Assembly: GCF_964194025.1 (NCBI RefSeq)
Contig: NC_134468.1
Location: 54,932,001-54,996,000 of the forward strand
From: Convolutriloba macropyga
Lineage: Eukaryota
Direction of reading: 5' to 3'
Length of the DNA stretch: 64,000 nt
The first letter of the stretch is position 1, and each line of letters begins with the position of its first letter. A program made the position numbers. This document shows positions 3,001 through 64,000 of the stretch, piece by piece.

Positions 3001-4406
3001 TCTTCAGAATCTGAGCTCTGTCTCTCCCCTCGATGTTGCAATCTATGAGTGTCTACACTATCCGCGTCATGCTATTTTTTGATTGCTGTAAATATAGCCT
3101 GCCTTGCTGGTACACATCGTGCTCGTACACATCTGTTTGGCAGGTTTCCAGATGCTATGCACCCTCTTCTCGTGGGTCAGTTCCCTTCTCAGGGATTGCG
3201 CCTACTTCAGACTCTCAAAGATCACATCTTGAACAGCCCATTACTTTGCGTGTGATGGGTATATACACCAGGTATCTCGTGTCCCAGTATAATCACTTTC
3301 TGTTCCCTTTCAATTCCCTTTCCGTTCAAGTTTGCTCACTTCTCTATCTCTTCCTGATCGATACTATGCAACCAAAAAACAGGTTTCGGAACTCTCATCA
3401 TCTCTCCTGGGCATCTTTTCGTCTCAAACAAATTGGGAAGTCCGTATTCAATGAGCAAGCATCTCCTGCCATGTCTTATTGTACCTCTCAGTTAACCCAT
3501 TATGTTGTGGCGTCTCCTGTAGAATGGCTGCGTCTAAACAATGCCTCTTGAATTGTTCTGAGATAAACACCTTTGCACTGCCTTGTCTCAGCTTCTTGGG
3601 CGTCCCCAAATTGAGAACAAAAAACTTCAGATTGGCAAGTACATCACTCGTTGCTTCCAGCAAGTCTAAAAACAAACTTTGTGTATTGGTCTGTGAACAC
3701 AAGGCAAAATGGGAAGCCTGAAAAAGACAACTCTGAAAGGTCCCATTACATCTGTTAACACTGTCCAGCTTACCGTCTGCATGAGTTTCTGCAATTGGAA
3801 CTGGAGTCTGTGATCTTGGCCAATGAACACATATCGCATATTTATTTGAGTTCCCCAACTGTCACTGGTGCATTCCTGACTATTCTGTGCTACTTCTGCA
3901 CTGTCCAGCGTCAAGCTGTTGGAACTCGTCTCTAATTAAAGAATGCAGCAGTGAAAGTGAAACAAAACAACCGACTAAAGTTTTTCATCAGAGGACTTCC
4001 AACCGCGCGGTGTTGCTGGTGCAACGATTTACAGGGGGTAGGGACTGGCGGACGGCTTGAAGTGAGAGGGTTTAAGTCTGTGGATCAAATCCTAAGAACC
4101 GCCCTTCAAACCATCAATTTGTCTTGTTGAATCGCATACTTATAGAACAGAAAGGCGTAATGATCTAGGACAGCTGCTCAGCCACTTGCTACCCTACGGG
4201 GTTTACCTGTATATCTAATGTTAATCTGTCTTTGAGCGGAAAAAATTCAGACGGAGAAAGGGTCAGACAAAAAAGTCGGTCAAGCAGAAAATCGCATTGA
4301 ACATCACAGGACAAAGATTGCTAAAAAATTCGTTTGAAAGCATTTAACTGTTCTCTCGTAATATTTTTTGTCCGAGTTCCCTTGCGGAGTTTCATGCAGC
4401 TGTTTC

Positions 4407-4458
<52 letters not shown>

Positions 4459-61100: not shown

Positions 61101-64000
61101 ACTGAGGGGATTTTCGTCCCAGTCGTCGTCTTAGAAAATTGTCCTATTATTTCTGCAGATCTGACAGTCACAGCATAGCTGCCCGTTAGCTGCTCTCAAA
61201 TAACCAAATTTGAGGGAGAGCTTGACACCTAGTTTATCCGTTTGTAAAAAAAATGCCATGATGCTATCGATTTATGGGGTCTTTCCCATTATAGCCCCCC
61301 CCCCCCCCCCCCATGAAATTATAGCCCCCCATTATGGTATATTTACCATTATTGGGGGGGCTATAATGGGAAAGAACCGATTTATGATGCTATCGGAAAA
61401 GCGCCTCCTTCTGTAGCTTCAAATTCATGAGACTTGAGTAGAGCGAGATATTTTGGCGTGCAAATAGTTTAACAGGGTGCCTCTCCACTTTTTCTATCAT
61501 CTCTTGGTGGTGTTGTTATTTATCAACATACGGAACGTTGTATTAACCCGCTTTATGAGCCAAACCCTACTACGTTGGGTTATCTTTTTTGGTCTTTCCC
61601 ATTATACCCCCCCACGAAACTATAGACCCCCTCAATATGGTATAATTACCATGATTAGGGAGTGGGGGCTATAAGTTATCTGACCATTAAGCTAGGGGAC
61701 TATAATGGTAGAGCCCATTTATAGCAATAGCTTTTCCGAATTCAAGGGGGAACTTATGTAGCATGGTAATAGAACCGAATCAAAACATTGAACTTATTAT
61801 ATGAAGCTGACCATTGTATATTCTGTACGCATCCGAGTTGGTTTAACTTCTGGTGTTTTAACTGGACTTAGCTCGAGGCATCTCTATATCCATAATCATT
61901 ATAACCAATACTAATTTCTCACTTCTCTTTTGTATTGTTGAAGTATTAAGCAAATTACTAGTACAGCAGAAAACAAACTTCAACGGCAATTCGTGCTCGA
62001 GCCATTTGCATTGTACTGTTATGTCGAAGTCCTCCGATATGAAATCTGTTAGCCAAATCGCTAATTTTTTGAACTAGCATCCTTACCGAAATGTTTATTT
62101 TCAATTTTCCCGACTTCAAGCTCATTGACACAAAAGTTAACTAATAAGACTAAAACAGGCGAAGTCGTTCTTTGGTCTAAAACTGCTAAACAATTCTGCT
62201 ATTACGCTTTCAGTTCTATGTCAGAAAATTGAAGAACACATCTTCAACTTATCAAAATTTGTCATTTTTAAAACCTTCAAGTTTATATCCATTGCAGTCG
62301 CCAATGACCTAAAAAATATACATTTAACACCTTGATCTGTTCCCAAGTACTAGATTAATTCGTTATTACCTCGCAAAAGCAGGTTTTGGAAGCCTCGAGT
62401 CTTCCATTTTCATAATTTAAAGAAAAATTGCTGTTTTTCTAACAGCATTCTAACATGCTCAAGTGCGCGGCCATGTTGATAATGAAATTTGTAAAGTTCA
62501 CCGTGTACATGAAATTTCGAGAACTCTGATTGGCTGCAATTTTCACGTGACGCGTAACTACAAAGTAGGCCTTTAGAAATATCGAACTGGATATCCTTTA
62601 ATTCAAAATTGGGCAATTTCTGCTTACCCGATGTCCTATTTTTGATGAAAGTTTCCATAGAGGTGGGATATACACTTTTGGAGCACTATGCCAAGAATCA
62701 GTTATTATTTTCCTCTGGTTTTTAAGTTTCAGAGCAAAAATCGGCAAAATTTGAATAAAAATTTGAGATAAAGTAGTAATAATAACGCAAATGTAGTATA
62801 TATGCTACAACAGAAAAGCAGCAAAGCAATTGAACGCCTTGAAGCAAGCTTTACATTCAATTCAAGTTCCAATATCGGAGCTCCGACAGATGGCTTCGAG
62901 TTCTCGTAGCCTTTTGCTAGAAAAGCCGATGAATACAATTATTCAACTGCATGTATGAATTTTGCTTTTATATATTCACACAATTTTAACCGAACAGTAA
63001 TAAATTGAAGCGCAGTAGCGTAACGTGCGTGAAGTATGAAAAGGAGTAAGCAGTATGAATCCTGCTTTGCCTAGCTTGTTCAATTCCTTACTTTTGCTTG
63101 TGCCAGGAAAAGAAAGCAACATTGACTATTTAGCGCTTTTCCGTTCCCTGTAATCTATTAAACTGAAATAATAGGAATACTGCCTAAATTTTCCTTGGAA
63201 ATCAATAGTTTCAAGTCAAGTGAAACAGTAACTGCCTTTGATACAGTTTCTTACTAGCAGATGATAAAAAGTAGGTCAATACGGCGGCCTAAATGCCAGT
63301 GCATAATTTTAGCCCTCTTGTAAAAATTAAAATAGCAACCGAAATATGCCATCTGAAAATAAATACTTTCAACAAAGATCTTGCTCCCTCAAAAATGCCT
63401 ATGAAGACAAGTTCGACCGAAAAAACTCTCATAGAATTTTTTGGATCTTTTCCGTTTTGCCCCCCCCCCCCCCCCCCCCGCTTAGCGGGTGCAAATTATT
63501 TGCAACCTCCAAACGCACACGCACGTGCCATATTTGTACATAATGTTTTACTGTGTAATGACACGTGCTCTGTAACTGGGGGTTGCATAACGTATTGGGG
63601 GGGGGGGGGGGGGGGGGGGCAAGCGTAAAAGACCTAACGGAAACAAAAATTTATCAGTATTGAAAGCTGTCAAATTGTTCAATTGATCAATAGAATCGTT
63701 CATAAATATCATATTAGAACCAAATTTACTGATGACCAGACCCACCCGAGTACTGCTGCGCTAGAAATTACAATTGCTGGGTCTGACCCTCAAAAACTCA
63801 AGTCTGGCCAGAAGCGGATTCGAGTGCAATTGATTCTGAAGAGAGTCAGTTTAGAGCGCCTCCCGGGTCAACGATCATACAACTTTCTTTGATTTCGTAC
63901 TAGGTCATATATGATTCTTAGTAATCATACTAGGTCATATATGATTTGTATGAATTCTTGGTAGTCATACAAGGACCATATATGATTTCCTAGAAATCAT

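What the first reader, a model, noticed from the sequence alone, without database searches (positions are those of the whole stretch)
3971..61200. All recognisable HINE copies of two families are co-oriented with the host gene
Seen: roughly 25-30 copies or fragments all show the hairpin+subTIR end on the left and the partial-IR end on the right of the plus strand; I found none reversed. Random insertion would give a mix. Inference: either strand-specific targeting of the T-rich non-template strand (Helentrons insert at TT, and ssDNA exposed in transcription suits an HUH transposase), local rolling-circle hopping, or selection against inverted pairs that would form dsRNA in the pre-mRNA.
[Added by the scan's program, not by the reader: the finding's places include an assembly gap (unread letters, written N; its length is only estimated) at 24258 to 24405. 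Whether the letters on both sides are continuous or in frame is not known: test that first.]
Basis: partly seen in the sequence, partly recalled or inferred. Interest (0 to 1): 0.65.

Follow-up and report, generated by a model that had tools for sequence, protein, structure and literature searches.

The report
Co-oriented HINE transposons in one gene
Inside the introns of one acoel-worm bromodomain gene, 27 of 28 remnants of small rolling-circle transposons point the same way as the gene, far more than chance allows, and this may record how these elements choose a DNA strand when they insert.

Summary
The window comes from the acoel Convolutriloba macropyga, not from human. It lies almost wholly inside a BET bromodomain gene on the minus strand.

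Profile searches of both strands find two HINE/DINE-1-like families. Merged, they give 28 loci covering 19.9% of 3971-61300. Of these, 27 share one orientation and one diverged copy (17367-17643) is reversed: two-sided p=2e-7, or 15 of 16 (p=5e-4) with 1-kb merging.

By the published HINE anatomy, the elements' own 5'->3' strand is the window's minus strand, so they are sense to the gene.

The copies are 61-95% identical to consensus, and similarity does not depend on distance. They are therefore independent insertions, not local duplication.

Flanks are T-rich on the element strand, and the intron's sense strand is T-rich. Target composition alone predicts only 57-73% sense.

My best reading is strand-specific insertion into the T-rich, non-template strand, topped up by single-strand exposure or by selection. 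Only a genome-wide test, which I could not run, can decide. The assembly gap lies in an intron and touches no copy.

The parts
6914..60572 (-). Host gene: BET-family double-bromodomain gene (NCBI LOC142340425 of Convolutriloba macropyga). These are the coding exons mapped in the window. The last 72 aa are not in the window, so window 1-60572 lies inside the transcription unit of that isoform.
   Evidence: Pfam Bromodomain at 52560-52922 and BET at 33144-33434, both minus. 100% identity of the BD2 exon to P0006. tblastn of P0006 maps 16 collinear minus-strand exons. The C-terminus is absent from the window.
24258..24405 (.). Assembly gap (148 N). It is intronic and no HINE copy abuts it.
4002..4347 (-). 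HINE family A copy (profile positions 106-424). A diverged hairpin-like left end is visible from about 3971.
   Evidence: nhmmer E=1e-44; sequence.
15899..16132 (-). HINE A, lacking its 3' (hairpin) part.
   Evidence: E=2e-36.
16477..16943 (-). HINE A, full length.
   Evidence: E=6e-82; ends shown.
17367..17643 (+). The only reversed copy. HINE A-like and diverged (62% identical to consensus). It lies where the local AT skew is reversed.
   Evidence: E=1e-25; E=1e-33.
19163..19609 (-). HINE A, full length, with an 80-bp extension to 19686 shared with 30106-30180. It sits between inverted-repeat arms 18993-19168 and 19690-19856.
20880..21528 (-). HINE A with internal module D.
21762..22269 (-). 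HINE family B, full length.
   Evidence: E=2e-139; ends shown.
25070..25149 (-). HINE A 5'-end fragment.
25525..25939 (-). HINE A, near full length.
   Evidence: E=7e-49.
28386..29451 (-). Cluster of three parts: an A fragment; composite A[B] at 28456-29153; and the start of the next A copy (from 29155), joined head-to-tail.
29648..30105 (-). Remainder of the A copy 29155-30105, which carries module D.
31553..31796 (-). HINE A, 5' half.
   Evidence: E=5e-52.
33473..33907 (-). HINE B (C subgroup).
34547..35102 (-). HINE B, full length.
36462..37030 (-). Three adjoining A pieces.
41766..42577 (-). Composite A[B] (B inserted in the A-run of A), followed by an A 3'-end fragment.
42845..42929 (-). 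HINE A 5'-end fragment.
45702..46233 (-). HINE A copies. The main copy, 45849-46152, is 89% identical to consensus and is followed by a duplicated 5' end.
46397..46754 (-). HINE A.
   Evidence: E=7e-49.
48360..48835 (-). HINE B (C subgroup).
49361..49705 (-). HINE B.
49950..50371 (-). HINE B, preceded by repeat E (49688-49954).
52844..53439 (-). HINE A, full length, in the intron next to the BD2 exon.
56293..56409 (-). HINE B 5'-end fragment.
56891..57308 (-). HINE A, the best-preserved copy (92.5% identical to consensus). This was the seed.
58297..58679 (-). HINE A, diverged, preceded by tandem copies of its 3'-end region (57948-58387).
60240..60280 (-). HINE A 5'-end fragment in the first coding intron.
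60955..61259 (-). HINE B, preceded by repeat E (60693-60959). It lies upstream of the first coding exon, and whether it is in a 5'UTR intron or outside the transcript is unknown.

Best explanation
The repeats are independent insertions, spread over a long time, of two families of non-autonomous Helentron-type rolling-circle transposons (HINE/DINE-1-like). They lie in the introns of a BET bromodomain gene whose HINE copies carry a strand-asymmetric substitution pattern of the kind I recall for germline-transcribed regions.

Their near-uniform sense orientation is set mainly at insertion. The Helentron machinery joins the element's own (T-bounded) strand into T-rich tracts of one DNA strand. In this gene the T-rich strand is the sense (non-template) strand.

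That strand is also the one left single-stranded by transcription. It would be the lagging-strand template as well, if forks run with transcription. The HUH nuclease's need for single-stranded DNA would therefore add to the compositional bias.

**Shown here:** the family anatomy; the orientation count; the independence of the copies; the T-rich coupling of the flanks; the T-skew of the sense strand; the strand-asymmetric substitutions.

**Inferred:** that single-strand exposure, rather than selection, supplies the excess over the 57-73% that composition alone predicts.
For: - **Orientation:** 27 of 28 loci are co-oriented, p=2.2e-7, and 15 of 16 with 1-kb merging, p=5.2e-4. Filter-off searches find no further credible reversed copy. 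A 3'-end signature scan gives 6 against 0.
- **Anatomy and sense assignment:** the element anatomy matches published HINE/DINE-1, and the canonical strand is the window's minus strand, that is the gene's sense strand.
- **Independent insertions:** copies are 61-95% identical to consensus, with no link between similarity and distance. Sequence between the copies is unique.
- **Flank composition:** flanks within 5 bp are 50-55% A on the plus strand against 35% background. 23 of 27 co-oriented loci have a positive local AT skew at +-100 bp, and the reversed locus has -0.15.
- **Intron composition:** unique intron sequence is T- and G-rich on the sense strand, with T-run asymmetry of 1.35 to 2.7.
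- **Nested insertion:** B sits inside the T-run of A, in the same orientation.
- **Substitution asymmetry:** substitutions in the copies show sense-strand A>G at 1.59 times T>C, p=7e-6. I recall this pattern for germline-transcribed regions in mammals (Green et al. 2003, not seen here).
- **Literature, passages read:**
  - The Helraiser HUH nuclease cuts only ssDNA, its authors propose replication or transcription as the source of that ssDNA, and insertions are 2.1-fold enriched in H3K36me3 gene bodies (PMC4778049).
  - IS200/IS605 orientation follows replication direction (PMC5371812).
  - The non-template strand stays single-stranded during transcription (PMC10030826).
  - Paramecium Helitrons show an absolute orientation bias at an asymmetric target (PMC13085455).
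Against: - There is one gene and one window, with no genome-wide count.
- Composition-only models reach just 57-73%, so the remainder is unexplained by anything measured here.
- Selection can supply that remainder. The reading a reversed copy would put into the pre-mRNA has 30 poly(A) hexamers against 15, and 6 GGTRAG 5'-splice-like sites against 1.
- Transcription and replication direction cannot be separated in this window.
- Helentrons also encode an AP endonuclease that may nick duplex DNA, so single-strand exposure may not be needed.
- Oyster HINEs are reported in both orientations, though this was not tested against genes (PMC7492417).
- The T-skew of 'unique' intron sequence may itself be decayed sense HINEs, which would make the argument circular.
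- The substitution asymmetry cannot be separated from an element-strand effect, because all the copies used share one orientation.
Confidence: 0.45

Rival explanations
1. Post-insertion selection on RNA processing. Insertions occur in both orientations, but copies antisense to the gene are purged because their A-rich strand would place poly(A) signals and 5'-splice-like sites in the pre-mRNA.
For: - The reversed reading of the HINE copies carries 30 AATAAA/ATTAAA hexamers against 15, and 6 GGTRAG sites against 1.
- Many family-A copies end in ATTAAA, and B copies are followed by AATAAA, on that strand.
- Composition-only insertion models fall short of 96%.
- Antisense bias of retroelements in genes is the established parallel (PMC10030826, passages read).
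Against: - The sense reading carries more 3'-splice-like pyrimidine tracts, 7 against 0, so a hazard exists both ways.
- Unique intron sequence shows a similar hexamer asymmetry, 124 against 81, so the signal may simply reflect the A/T skew.
- The flanks show strand-coupled T-richness, which selection does not predict.
Confidence: 0.25
2. Replication-coupled insertion. As with IS200/IS605, the HUH enzyme inserts into the lagging-strand template. The 57 kb is replicated mostly in one direction, so orientation follows fork direction and matches the gene only by coincidence or through co-directional replication.
For: - IS608-family orientation recapitulates replication direction (PMC5371812).
- The Helraiser authors name lagging-strand ssDNA as a possible source.
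- The bias is uniform over 57 kb.
Against: - Nothing in the window measures fork direction.
- The window holds no second gene of opposite strand that carries HINEs.
- The reversed copy follows local T-skew, which points to sequence rather than to a regional factor.
Confidence: 0.12
3. Selection against inverted pairs. Once the first copies were fixed, reversed copies were removed because they would pair with them into long dsRNA in the pre-mRNA. Orientation is then uniform within a gene but arbitrary relative to it.
For: - The one reversed copy is so diverged that it gives no inverted blastn match to any other copy.
- 0 of 6 inverted pairs join two HINEs.
Against: - The same introns tolerate a foldback with 177-nt arms that are 94% complementary (47111-47287 and 47473-47649).
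- They also tolerate a 300-bp palindrome (18125-18429) and 176-bp inverted arms around a HINE.
- This rival does not explain the T-rich strand coupling of the flanks.
Confidence: 0.08
4. Non-independent local amplification. This could be rolling-circle read-through, local hopping or segmental duplication that copies orientation along with sequence.
For: - Head-to-tail junctions occur, for example at 29153/29155.
- Composites share identical junctions at two sites: the B->A junction at 29107 and 42413, and the E->B junction at 49954 and 60959.
- Merging at 2 kb leaves only 10 loci, 9 against 1, p=0.021.
Against: - Neighbours are no more similar than distant copies (61.6% against 61.7%).
- Divergence ranges from 5% to 39%.
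- The sequence between copies is unique.
- 15 of 16 loci more than 1 kb apart are still co-oriented.
Confidence: 0.06

Closest known systems
HINE / DINE-1 (Helentron-associated interspersed elements; Thomas, Vadnagara & Pritham 2014, PMC4067079, passages read)
   Same: - SubTIRs, with the 5' one a few nt from the terminus and the 3' one about 40 nt from the 3' end.
- A short inverted repeat beside the 5' subTIR, as in DINE-1.
- A 5-6-bp stem-loop about 8-10 nt from the 3' end.
- T runs at both boundaries, T-rich flanks and no target-site duplication.
- Internal homopolymer/simple tracts.
- Small size: 388-597 bp for the eight simple full-length copies, 698 and 951 bp for the two composites.
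   Different: - A new host group (an acoel), with subTIR sequences of its own.
- The family B subTIR is only about 8 nt long.
- The paper's passages do not report any orientation bias relative to genes.
IS200/IS605 (IS608, ISDra2) single-strand transposition coupled to replication (Ton-Hoang et al. 2010, as summarised in PMC5371812; passages read)
   Same: - An HUH nuclease that works on single-stranded DNA.
- The orientation of copies is set by which strand is exposed.
   Different: - These are bacterial Y1 transposases without a helicase or endonuclease.
- Their bias is relative to replication and has been demonstrated genome-wide and experimentally.
- Here the strand rule is inferred from one eukaryotic gene.
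Antisense bias of LINE/LTR retroelements inside genes (PMC10030826, passages read; for Cutter et al. 2005 only the title was seen, in a reference list, and its content is recalled)
   Same: A strand asymmetry of transposable elements relative to the host transcript.
   Different: - The opposite direction: sense here, not antisense.
- A DNA rolling-circle element rather than a retroelement.
- A much stronger bias, 96%.
Telomere-capping Helitrons of Paramecium (PMC13085455, passages read)
   Same: An absolute orientation bias of a Helitron-like element, attributed to an asymmetric target sequence.
   Different: The target there is telomeric repeats at chromosome ends, not T-rich introns, and the elements belong to a different Helitron clade.
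Cg_HINE elements of the Pacific oyster (PMC7492417, passages read)
   Same: Non-autonomous Helentron derivatives, abundant and interspersed, often composite and carrying internal repeats.
   Different: They are reported as integrated in both orientations. Orientation relative to genes was not analysed in the passages read.

Membership tests
HINE / DINE-1-like (non-autonomous Helentron) | Subterminal inverted repeats of about 12-15 bp | tested here: met
   Family A: the 16-nt AATTGCTCTCAAACGA at 56925-56940 is the exact reverse complement of 57291-57306, and it recurs in the end alignments. Family B has only about 8 nt (AATAGCCG / CGGCTATT), shorter than the published range.
HINE / DINE-1-like (non-autonomous Helentron) | The 5' subTIR lies 2-4 nt from the 5' terminus and the 3' subTIR lies 38-60 bp from the 3' terminus | tested here: met
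   Family A read on the minus strand: the subTIR starts after TTTA/TTA at the 5' end, and the 3' subTIR starts about 40 nt before the ...TATGTT 3' end. The criterion is taken from PMC4067079.
HINE / DINE-1-like (non-autonomous Helentron) | A 5-10-bp palindrome (stem-loop) 8-35 bp from the 3' terminus | tested here: met
   Family B: a 6-bp stem, with 93.8% of 48 cells paired, compensatory changes at 2 of 6 pairs, and 0 of 500 shuffles reaching the observed score. Family A: a 5-bp stem (CCGAC/GTCGG) in the consensus and best copies, but only 66.7% of 60 cells are paired and the score is not above the shuffles. For A the covariation evidence is therefore inconclusive.
HINE / DINE-1-like (non-autonomous Helentron) | A short inverted repeat beside the 5' subTIR (DINE-1 type) | tested here: met
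   AATTGCTACAAAC lies 3 nt from the subTIR on the plus-strand right end of family A. It is present in most of the 21 right ends listed.
HINE / DINE-1-like (non-autonomous Helentron) | Insertion into TT / T-rich sequence | tested here: inconclusive
   Flanks within 5 bp are 50-55% A on the plus strand, that is T on the element strand, against 35% background. No empty sites are available to fix the exact dinucleotide.
HINE / DINE-1-like (non-autonomous Helentron) | No target-site duplication | tested here: met
   0 of 10 full-length copies show a direct repeat of consistent length at their junctions. Only A-run matches of 3-6 nt appear, and only when the boundaries are allowed to slide.
HINE / DINE-1-like (non-autonomous Helentron) | An autonomous Helentron partner (Rep/helicase/endonuclease) sharing the termini | not testable with these tools
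   There is no Rep/Hel gene in the window, and no collection holding this genome was available.
MITE (cut-and-paste derivative) | Terminal inverted repeats at the very ends, plus a fixed-length target-site duplication | tested here: not met
   The ends are asymmetric (hairpin end against inverted-repeat end), the repeats are subterminal, and there is no consistent duplication.
tRNA- or other RNA-derived SINE | A head related to tRNA, 7SL or 5S | tested here: not met
   0 tRNA genes and 0 Rfam matches at gathering score in the whole window.
Strand-of-exposure rule of HUH single-strand transposons (IS200/IS605-like behaviour) | Orientation follows the exposed strand (lagging-strand template or non-template strand) genome-wide | not testable with these tools
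   Only one transcription unit is in view, and within it 27 of 28 loci are sense.

The most novel reading that the evidence does not exclude
Helentron/HINE integration in this acoel is strand-specific with respect to germline transcription or fork direction. The element's transferred strand is ligated into the exposed, T-rich non-template or lagging-template strand. This would be a eukaryotic counterpart of the IS200/IS605 rule. Intronic HINE orientation would then be a fossil record of germline transcription or replication direction, and HINE decay would help to build the T-skew of introns.
Probability: 0.3. Interest if true: 0.8.

Novelty: new variant of a known kind. Interest (0 to 1): 0.55.

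Why it matters
Strand asymmetry of transposons inside genes is well known for retroelements. There it runs antisense and is mostly put down to selection.

A near-complete sense bias for a rolling-circle DNA transposon would be different. HUH nucleases act only on single-stranded DNA, and how eukaryotic Helitrons and Helentrons find single-stranded targets is still open (the Helraiser authors only propose replication or transcription as the source).

If the bias holds genome-wide and is already present in young insertions, it would give a direct genomic readout of that step. It would also offer a simple marker for germline transcription or fork direction in a little-studied animal lineage.

I found no report of such a bias for HINE, DINE-1 or Helentrons in six full-text searches, a seventh on lagging-strand orientation, or the passages read. 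Subscription journals and supplementary files were not visible.

Tried and rejected
- **Segmental or tandem duplication as the cause:** rejected. The sequence between copies is unique, and similarity does not depend on distance.
- **Chance:** rejected.
- **Target composition alone:** I tried TT to T8 run asymmetry, a +-5 position weight matrix and the sign of local skew. They predict 57-73% sense and are insufficient.
- **MITE or SINE identity:** rejected.
- **Family A hairpin covariation:** inconclusive.
- **Last coding exon:** the final 72 aa were not found in the window.
- **Tandem Repeats Finder:** it found no large internal arrays in the HINEs at score >=80.
- **Literature.**
  - I had recalled that the bat Helitron paper reports an antisense intron bias. 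The word search in PMC4224331 found no such statement, so I dropped the claim.
  - The silkworm Helitron paper has no occurrence of 'orientation'.
  - Yang & Barbash 2008 has none either.
  - A rice study reports no orientation bias for any intronic TE family (PMC7145194).
  - The strand-asymmetry review does not mention Helitrons.
  - Any genome-wide count. No collection on hand holds this genome: genome contigs covers only bacteria and archaea and was not scanned, and metagenome and viral contigs were closed.
  - Reading supplementary tables of HINE termini.
- **Spliced model:** I neither built nor searched a joined model of the host gene. I searched one exon alone and mapped the named reference protein onto the window locally.

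
Full report
**Source and host gene**

The window is eukaryotic and not human. One exon (52563-52922, minus strand), searched alone, is 100% identical over its coding part to an NCBI protein of the acoel Convolutriloba macropyga (P0006, LOC142340425 isoform X2, 1451 aa).

Pfam finds a Bromodomain at 52560-52922 and a BET domain at 33144-33434, both on the minus strand. A local tblastn of P0006 maps 16 collinear minus-strand exons, from the start codon at 60572 down to 6914 (aa 1379). 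The last 72 aa are not in the window. Window 1-60572 therefore lies inside the transcription unit of that isoform.

I did not build or search a joined exon model.

**The assembly gap**

The gap at 24258-24405 lies in the 24.7-kb intron between exons 7576-7722 and 32445-32645. These exons are on the same strand and in the order of the protein. The two sides are therefore correctly oriented relative to each other, and no reading frame crosses the gap.

Its right flank is purine-rich low-complexity sequence. No repeat copy abuts the gap. Its content is unknown and was left so.

Self-blastn gives 115 direct and 6 inverted unique pairs, and none of the 6 joins two HINE copies.

Iterated nhmmer from single seeds, searching both strands, gives:
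- 31 of 32 hits in one orientation for family A;
- 11 of 11 for family B;
- 9 of 9 for the related seed C;
- 4 of 4 for an internal module D.

B and C turn out to be one family, because each profile finds the other's copies.

After merging, there are 28 loci covering 11,400 bp, which is 19.9% of 3971-61300. The split is 27 against 1 (p=2.2e-7). It is 15 against 1 with 1-kb merging (p=5.2e-4) and 9 against 1 with 2-kb merging (p=0.021).

With filters off and E<=10, the only credible reversed copy remains 17367-17643. Most of the other reversed hits are 15-18-nt subTIRs matching their own partner. A family-independent scan for a GC-containing hairpin followed by TATGYT finds 6 on the minus strand and 0 on the plus strand.

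'None reversed' needs one correction.

**What the repeats are**

Read on the plus strand, family A (about 425 bp) has this layout:
- It starts with AACATAA and a hairpin (CCGAC-N4-GTCGG).
- The subTIR AATTGCTCTCAAACGA follows.
- A G-rich tract comes next.
- It ends with AATTGCTACAAAC-TTC-GTTTGAGAGCAATT-AAA.

The last 16 nt before the A-run are the exact inverse of the left subTIR. The preceding 13 nt form a partial inverted repeat with it.

Family B (about 500 bp) has the same layout with different sequences: hairpin CTGGCA-N3-TGCCAG and subTIR AATAGCCG/CGGCTATT. Both families share the AACATA left terminus.

Thomas et al. 2014 (passages read) define HINE/DINE-1 by these features:
- a 5' subTIR 2-4 nt from the 5' end, with an adjacent inverted repeat in DINE-1;
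- a 3' subTIR 38-60 bp from the 3' end;
- a 5-10-bp palindrome 8-35 bp from the 3' end;
- T-rich targets with at least two T at each end;
- no target-site change.

Read on the minus strand, family A meets each of the positional criteria. The elements' own strand is therefore the window's minus strand, and the copies are sense to the host gene.

Further checks:
- The B hairpin is kept by compensatory changes: 2 of 6 pairs, 93.8% of cells paired, 0 of 500 shuffles as high.
- The A hairpin is present in the consensus but decayed in many copies: 66.7% of cells paired, not above the shuffles.
- No consistent target duplication is seen in 10 of 10 full-length copies.
- No tRNA or Rfam family matches anywhere in the window.
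- An autonomous partner could not be sought.

**Are the copies independent?**

Family-A copies are 61-95% identical to their majority consensus. Identity between pairs does not fall with distance: Spearman -0.06, p=0.38, with 61.6% for 20 pairs less than 3 kb apart and 61.7% for 216 pairs further apart. Sequence between the loci has no self-match. Most loci are therefore separate insertions spread over a long time.

Some loci are not independent:
- There are head-to-tail junctions, for example at 29153/29155.
- A composite A[B] has B inside the A-run of A. It occurs twice with the same junction, at 29107 and 42413.
- A junction between repeat E and the B left end occurs twice, at 49954 and 60959.

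The conservative counts above allow for this.

**Why one orientation?**

(a) Target composition
- Within 5 bp of the ends, flanks are 50-55% A on the plus strand against 35% background.
- 23 of 27 co-oriented loci have a positive AT skew at +-100 bp. The reversed locus has -0.15, so it too sits in sequence that is T-rich on its own strand.
- Unique intron sequence (41,679 bp) is T 0.350, A 0.294, G 0.190, C 0.166 on the sense strand. T-runs are 1.35-fold (TT) to 2.7-fold (T6) commoner on that strand.
- Because HINEs are bounded by T on their own strand, this asymmetry must bias orientation. It predicts only 57-73% sense, however. P(>=27 of 28) is 5e-5 to 2e-3, and P(>=15 of 16) is 0.007-0.045.

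(b) Strand exposure
- HUH nucleases cut only single-stranded DNA. The Helraiser authors propose replication or transcription as the source and find enrichment in transcribed gene bodies.
- IS200/IS605 orientation follows the lagging-strand template.
- The non-template strand is single-stranded during transcription.
- In the rolling-circle model, the displaced element strand is joined into a nick of one target strand. By inference, that should place the element's own strand in the exposed strand, which gives sense orientation, as observed.
- Substitutions in the copies are strand-asymmetric. Sense-strand A>G is 1.59 times T>C (p=7e-6). Four of the other five complementary pairs are not significant, and G>T against C>A gives 0.79 (p=0.047). 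I recall this A>G pattern as typical of germline-transcribed DNA in mammals, but I did not see the source here. An element-strand effect cannot be excluded, because all copies used share one orientation.

(c) Selection
- A reversed copy would put 30 poly(A) hexamers against 15, and 6 GGTRAG sites against 1, into the pre-mRNA.
- The sense reading has 7 pyrimidine-tract 3'-splice-like sites against 0.
- The hazard therefore runs both ways.

(d) dsRNA avoidance
- This is weakened by a foldback at 47073-47679 (177-nt arms, 94% complementary), a palindrome at 18125-18429, and 176-bp inverted arms around the HINE at 19163. All three lie in the same introns.

**Verdict**

The most likely cause is an insertion-level strand rule: a T-rich target on the sense strand, probably reinforced by single-strand exposure. 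Purifying selection on RNA processing is the main rival. Local amplification and dsRNA avoidance are unlikely to be the main cause.

With one gene in view, transcription, replication and selection cannot be separated. The genome-wide, age-stratified count is decisive, and I could not run it because no collection on hand holds this genome.

**What is in print**

I found no report of a sense bias of HINE, DINE-1 or Helentrons in genes in six full-text searches. A seventh search, on Helitrons and lagging-strand orientation, found none either. The passages read did not mention one:
- The oyster paper says only 'both orientations'.
- Yang & Barbash 2008 and the silkworm paper do not discuss orientation.
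- A rice study reports no orientation bias for any intronic TE family.

Supplementary files and subscription journals were not visible. Cutter et al. 2005, whose title I saw only in a reference list, may bear on this.

Noticed in passing
38477-41462 (+): Remnant of a non-LTR retrotransposon. There is a reverse-transcriptase domain (Pfam RVT_1, E=1e-19) at 40618-41109, and the reading frame is broken into several stop-to-stop pieces. It lies antisense to the host gene, opposite to the HINEs.
   Followed up: partly
47073-47679: A foldback element of about 600 bp, with arms 47111-47287 and 47473-47649 that are 94% complementary and inner arms that are 90% complementary. A related fragment lies at 56500-56591. 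It would fold into a long hairpin in the pre-mRNA.
   Followed up: partly
18125-18429 and 18993-19856: A 300-bp imperfect palindrome. Nearby, 176-bp inverted arms (18993-19168 and 19690-19856, 76% identical) bracket the HINE at 19163-19686 exactly, as if the HINE had landed in the centre of another inverted-repeat element.
   Followed up: no
28456-29153 and 41766-42470: A composite element in which family B sits inside the A-run (the T-run on the element strand) of family A, in the same orientation. The same B-to-A junction occurs at both sites, so the composite was itself copied.
   Followed up: partly
49688-50067 and 60693-61075: The same junction between a 265-bp repeat (E) and the left end of a B copy occurs twice, at 86% identity. 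This is probably a head-to-tail dimer that was mobilised as a unit.
   Followed up: no
HINE copies throughout 4002-61259: Truncated family-A copies mostly keep the element's 5' end and lack the hairpin (3') end. Roughly 13 keep only the 5' side and 3 keep only the 3' side, read from the profile coordinates. Premature termination of rolling-circle transfer would give this pattern, but profile misalignment in the G-rich tract may contribute.
   Followed up: no
HINE copies, families A and B: Substitutions away from the consensus are strand-asymmetric. On the gene's sense strand A>G is 1.59 times T>C (180 against 171 events on 1949 and 2944 sites, p=7e-6).
   Followed up: partly
27177-27512: A 166-bp unit repeated twice at 98% identity, which is a recent tandem duplication in the large intron.
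   Followed up: no
57030-57065 and 21270-21295, 29400-29440, 46400-46420: Long G runs (up to about 30 G) inside family-A copies on the plus strand, that is C runs in the pre-mRNA. Their length varies between copies.
   Followed up: no
3448-3861 (-): A stop-to-stop frame whose translation looks to me like a fragment of a retroelement integrase core. Pfam gave no match at E<=0.01, so this is unconfirmed.
   Followed up: partly
4407-4457 and 13137-13182: (CT)25 and (GA)23 microsatellites. They account for one of the six inverted self-matches.
   Followed up: no
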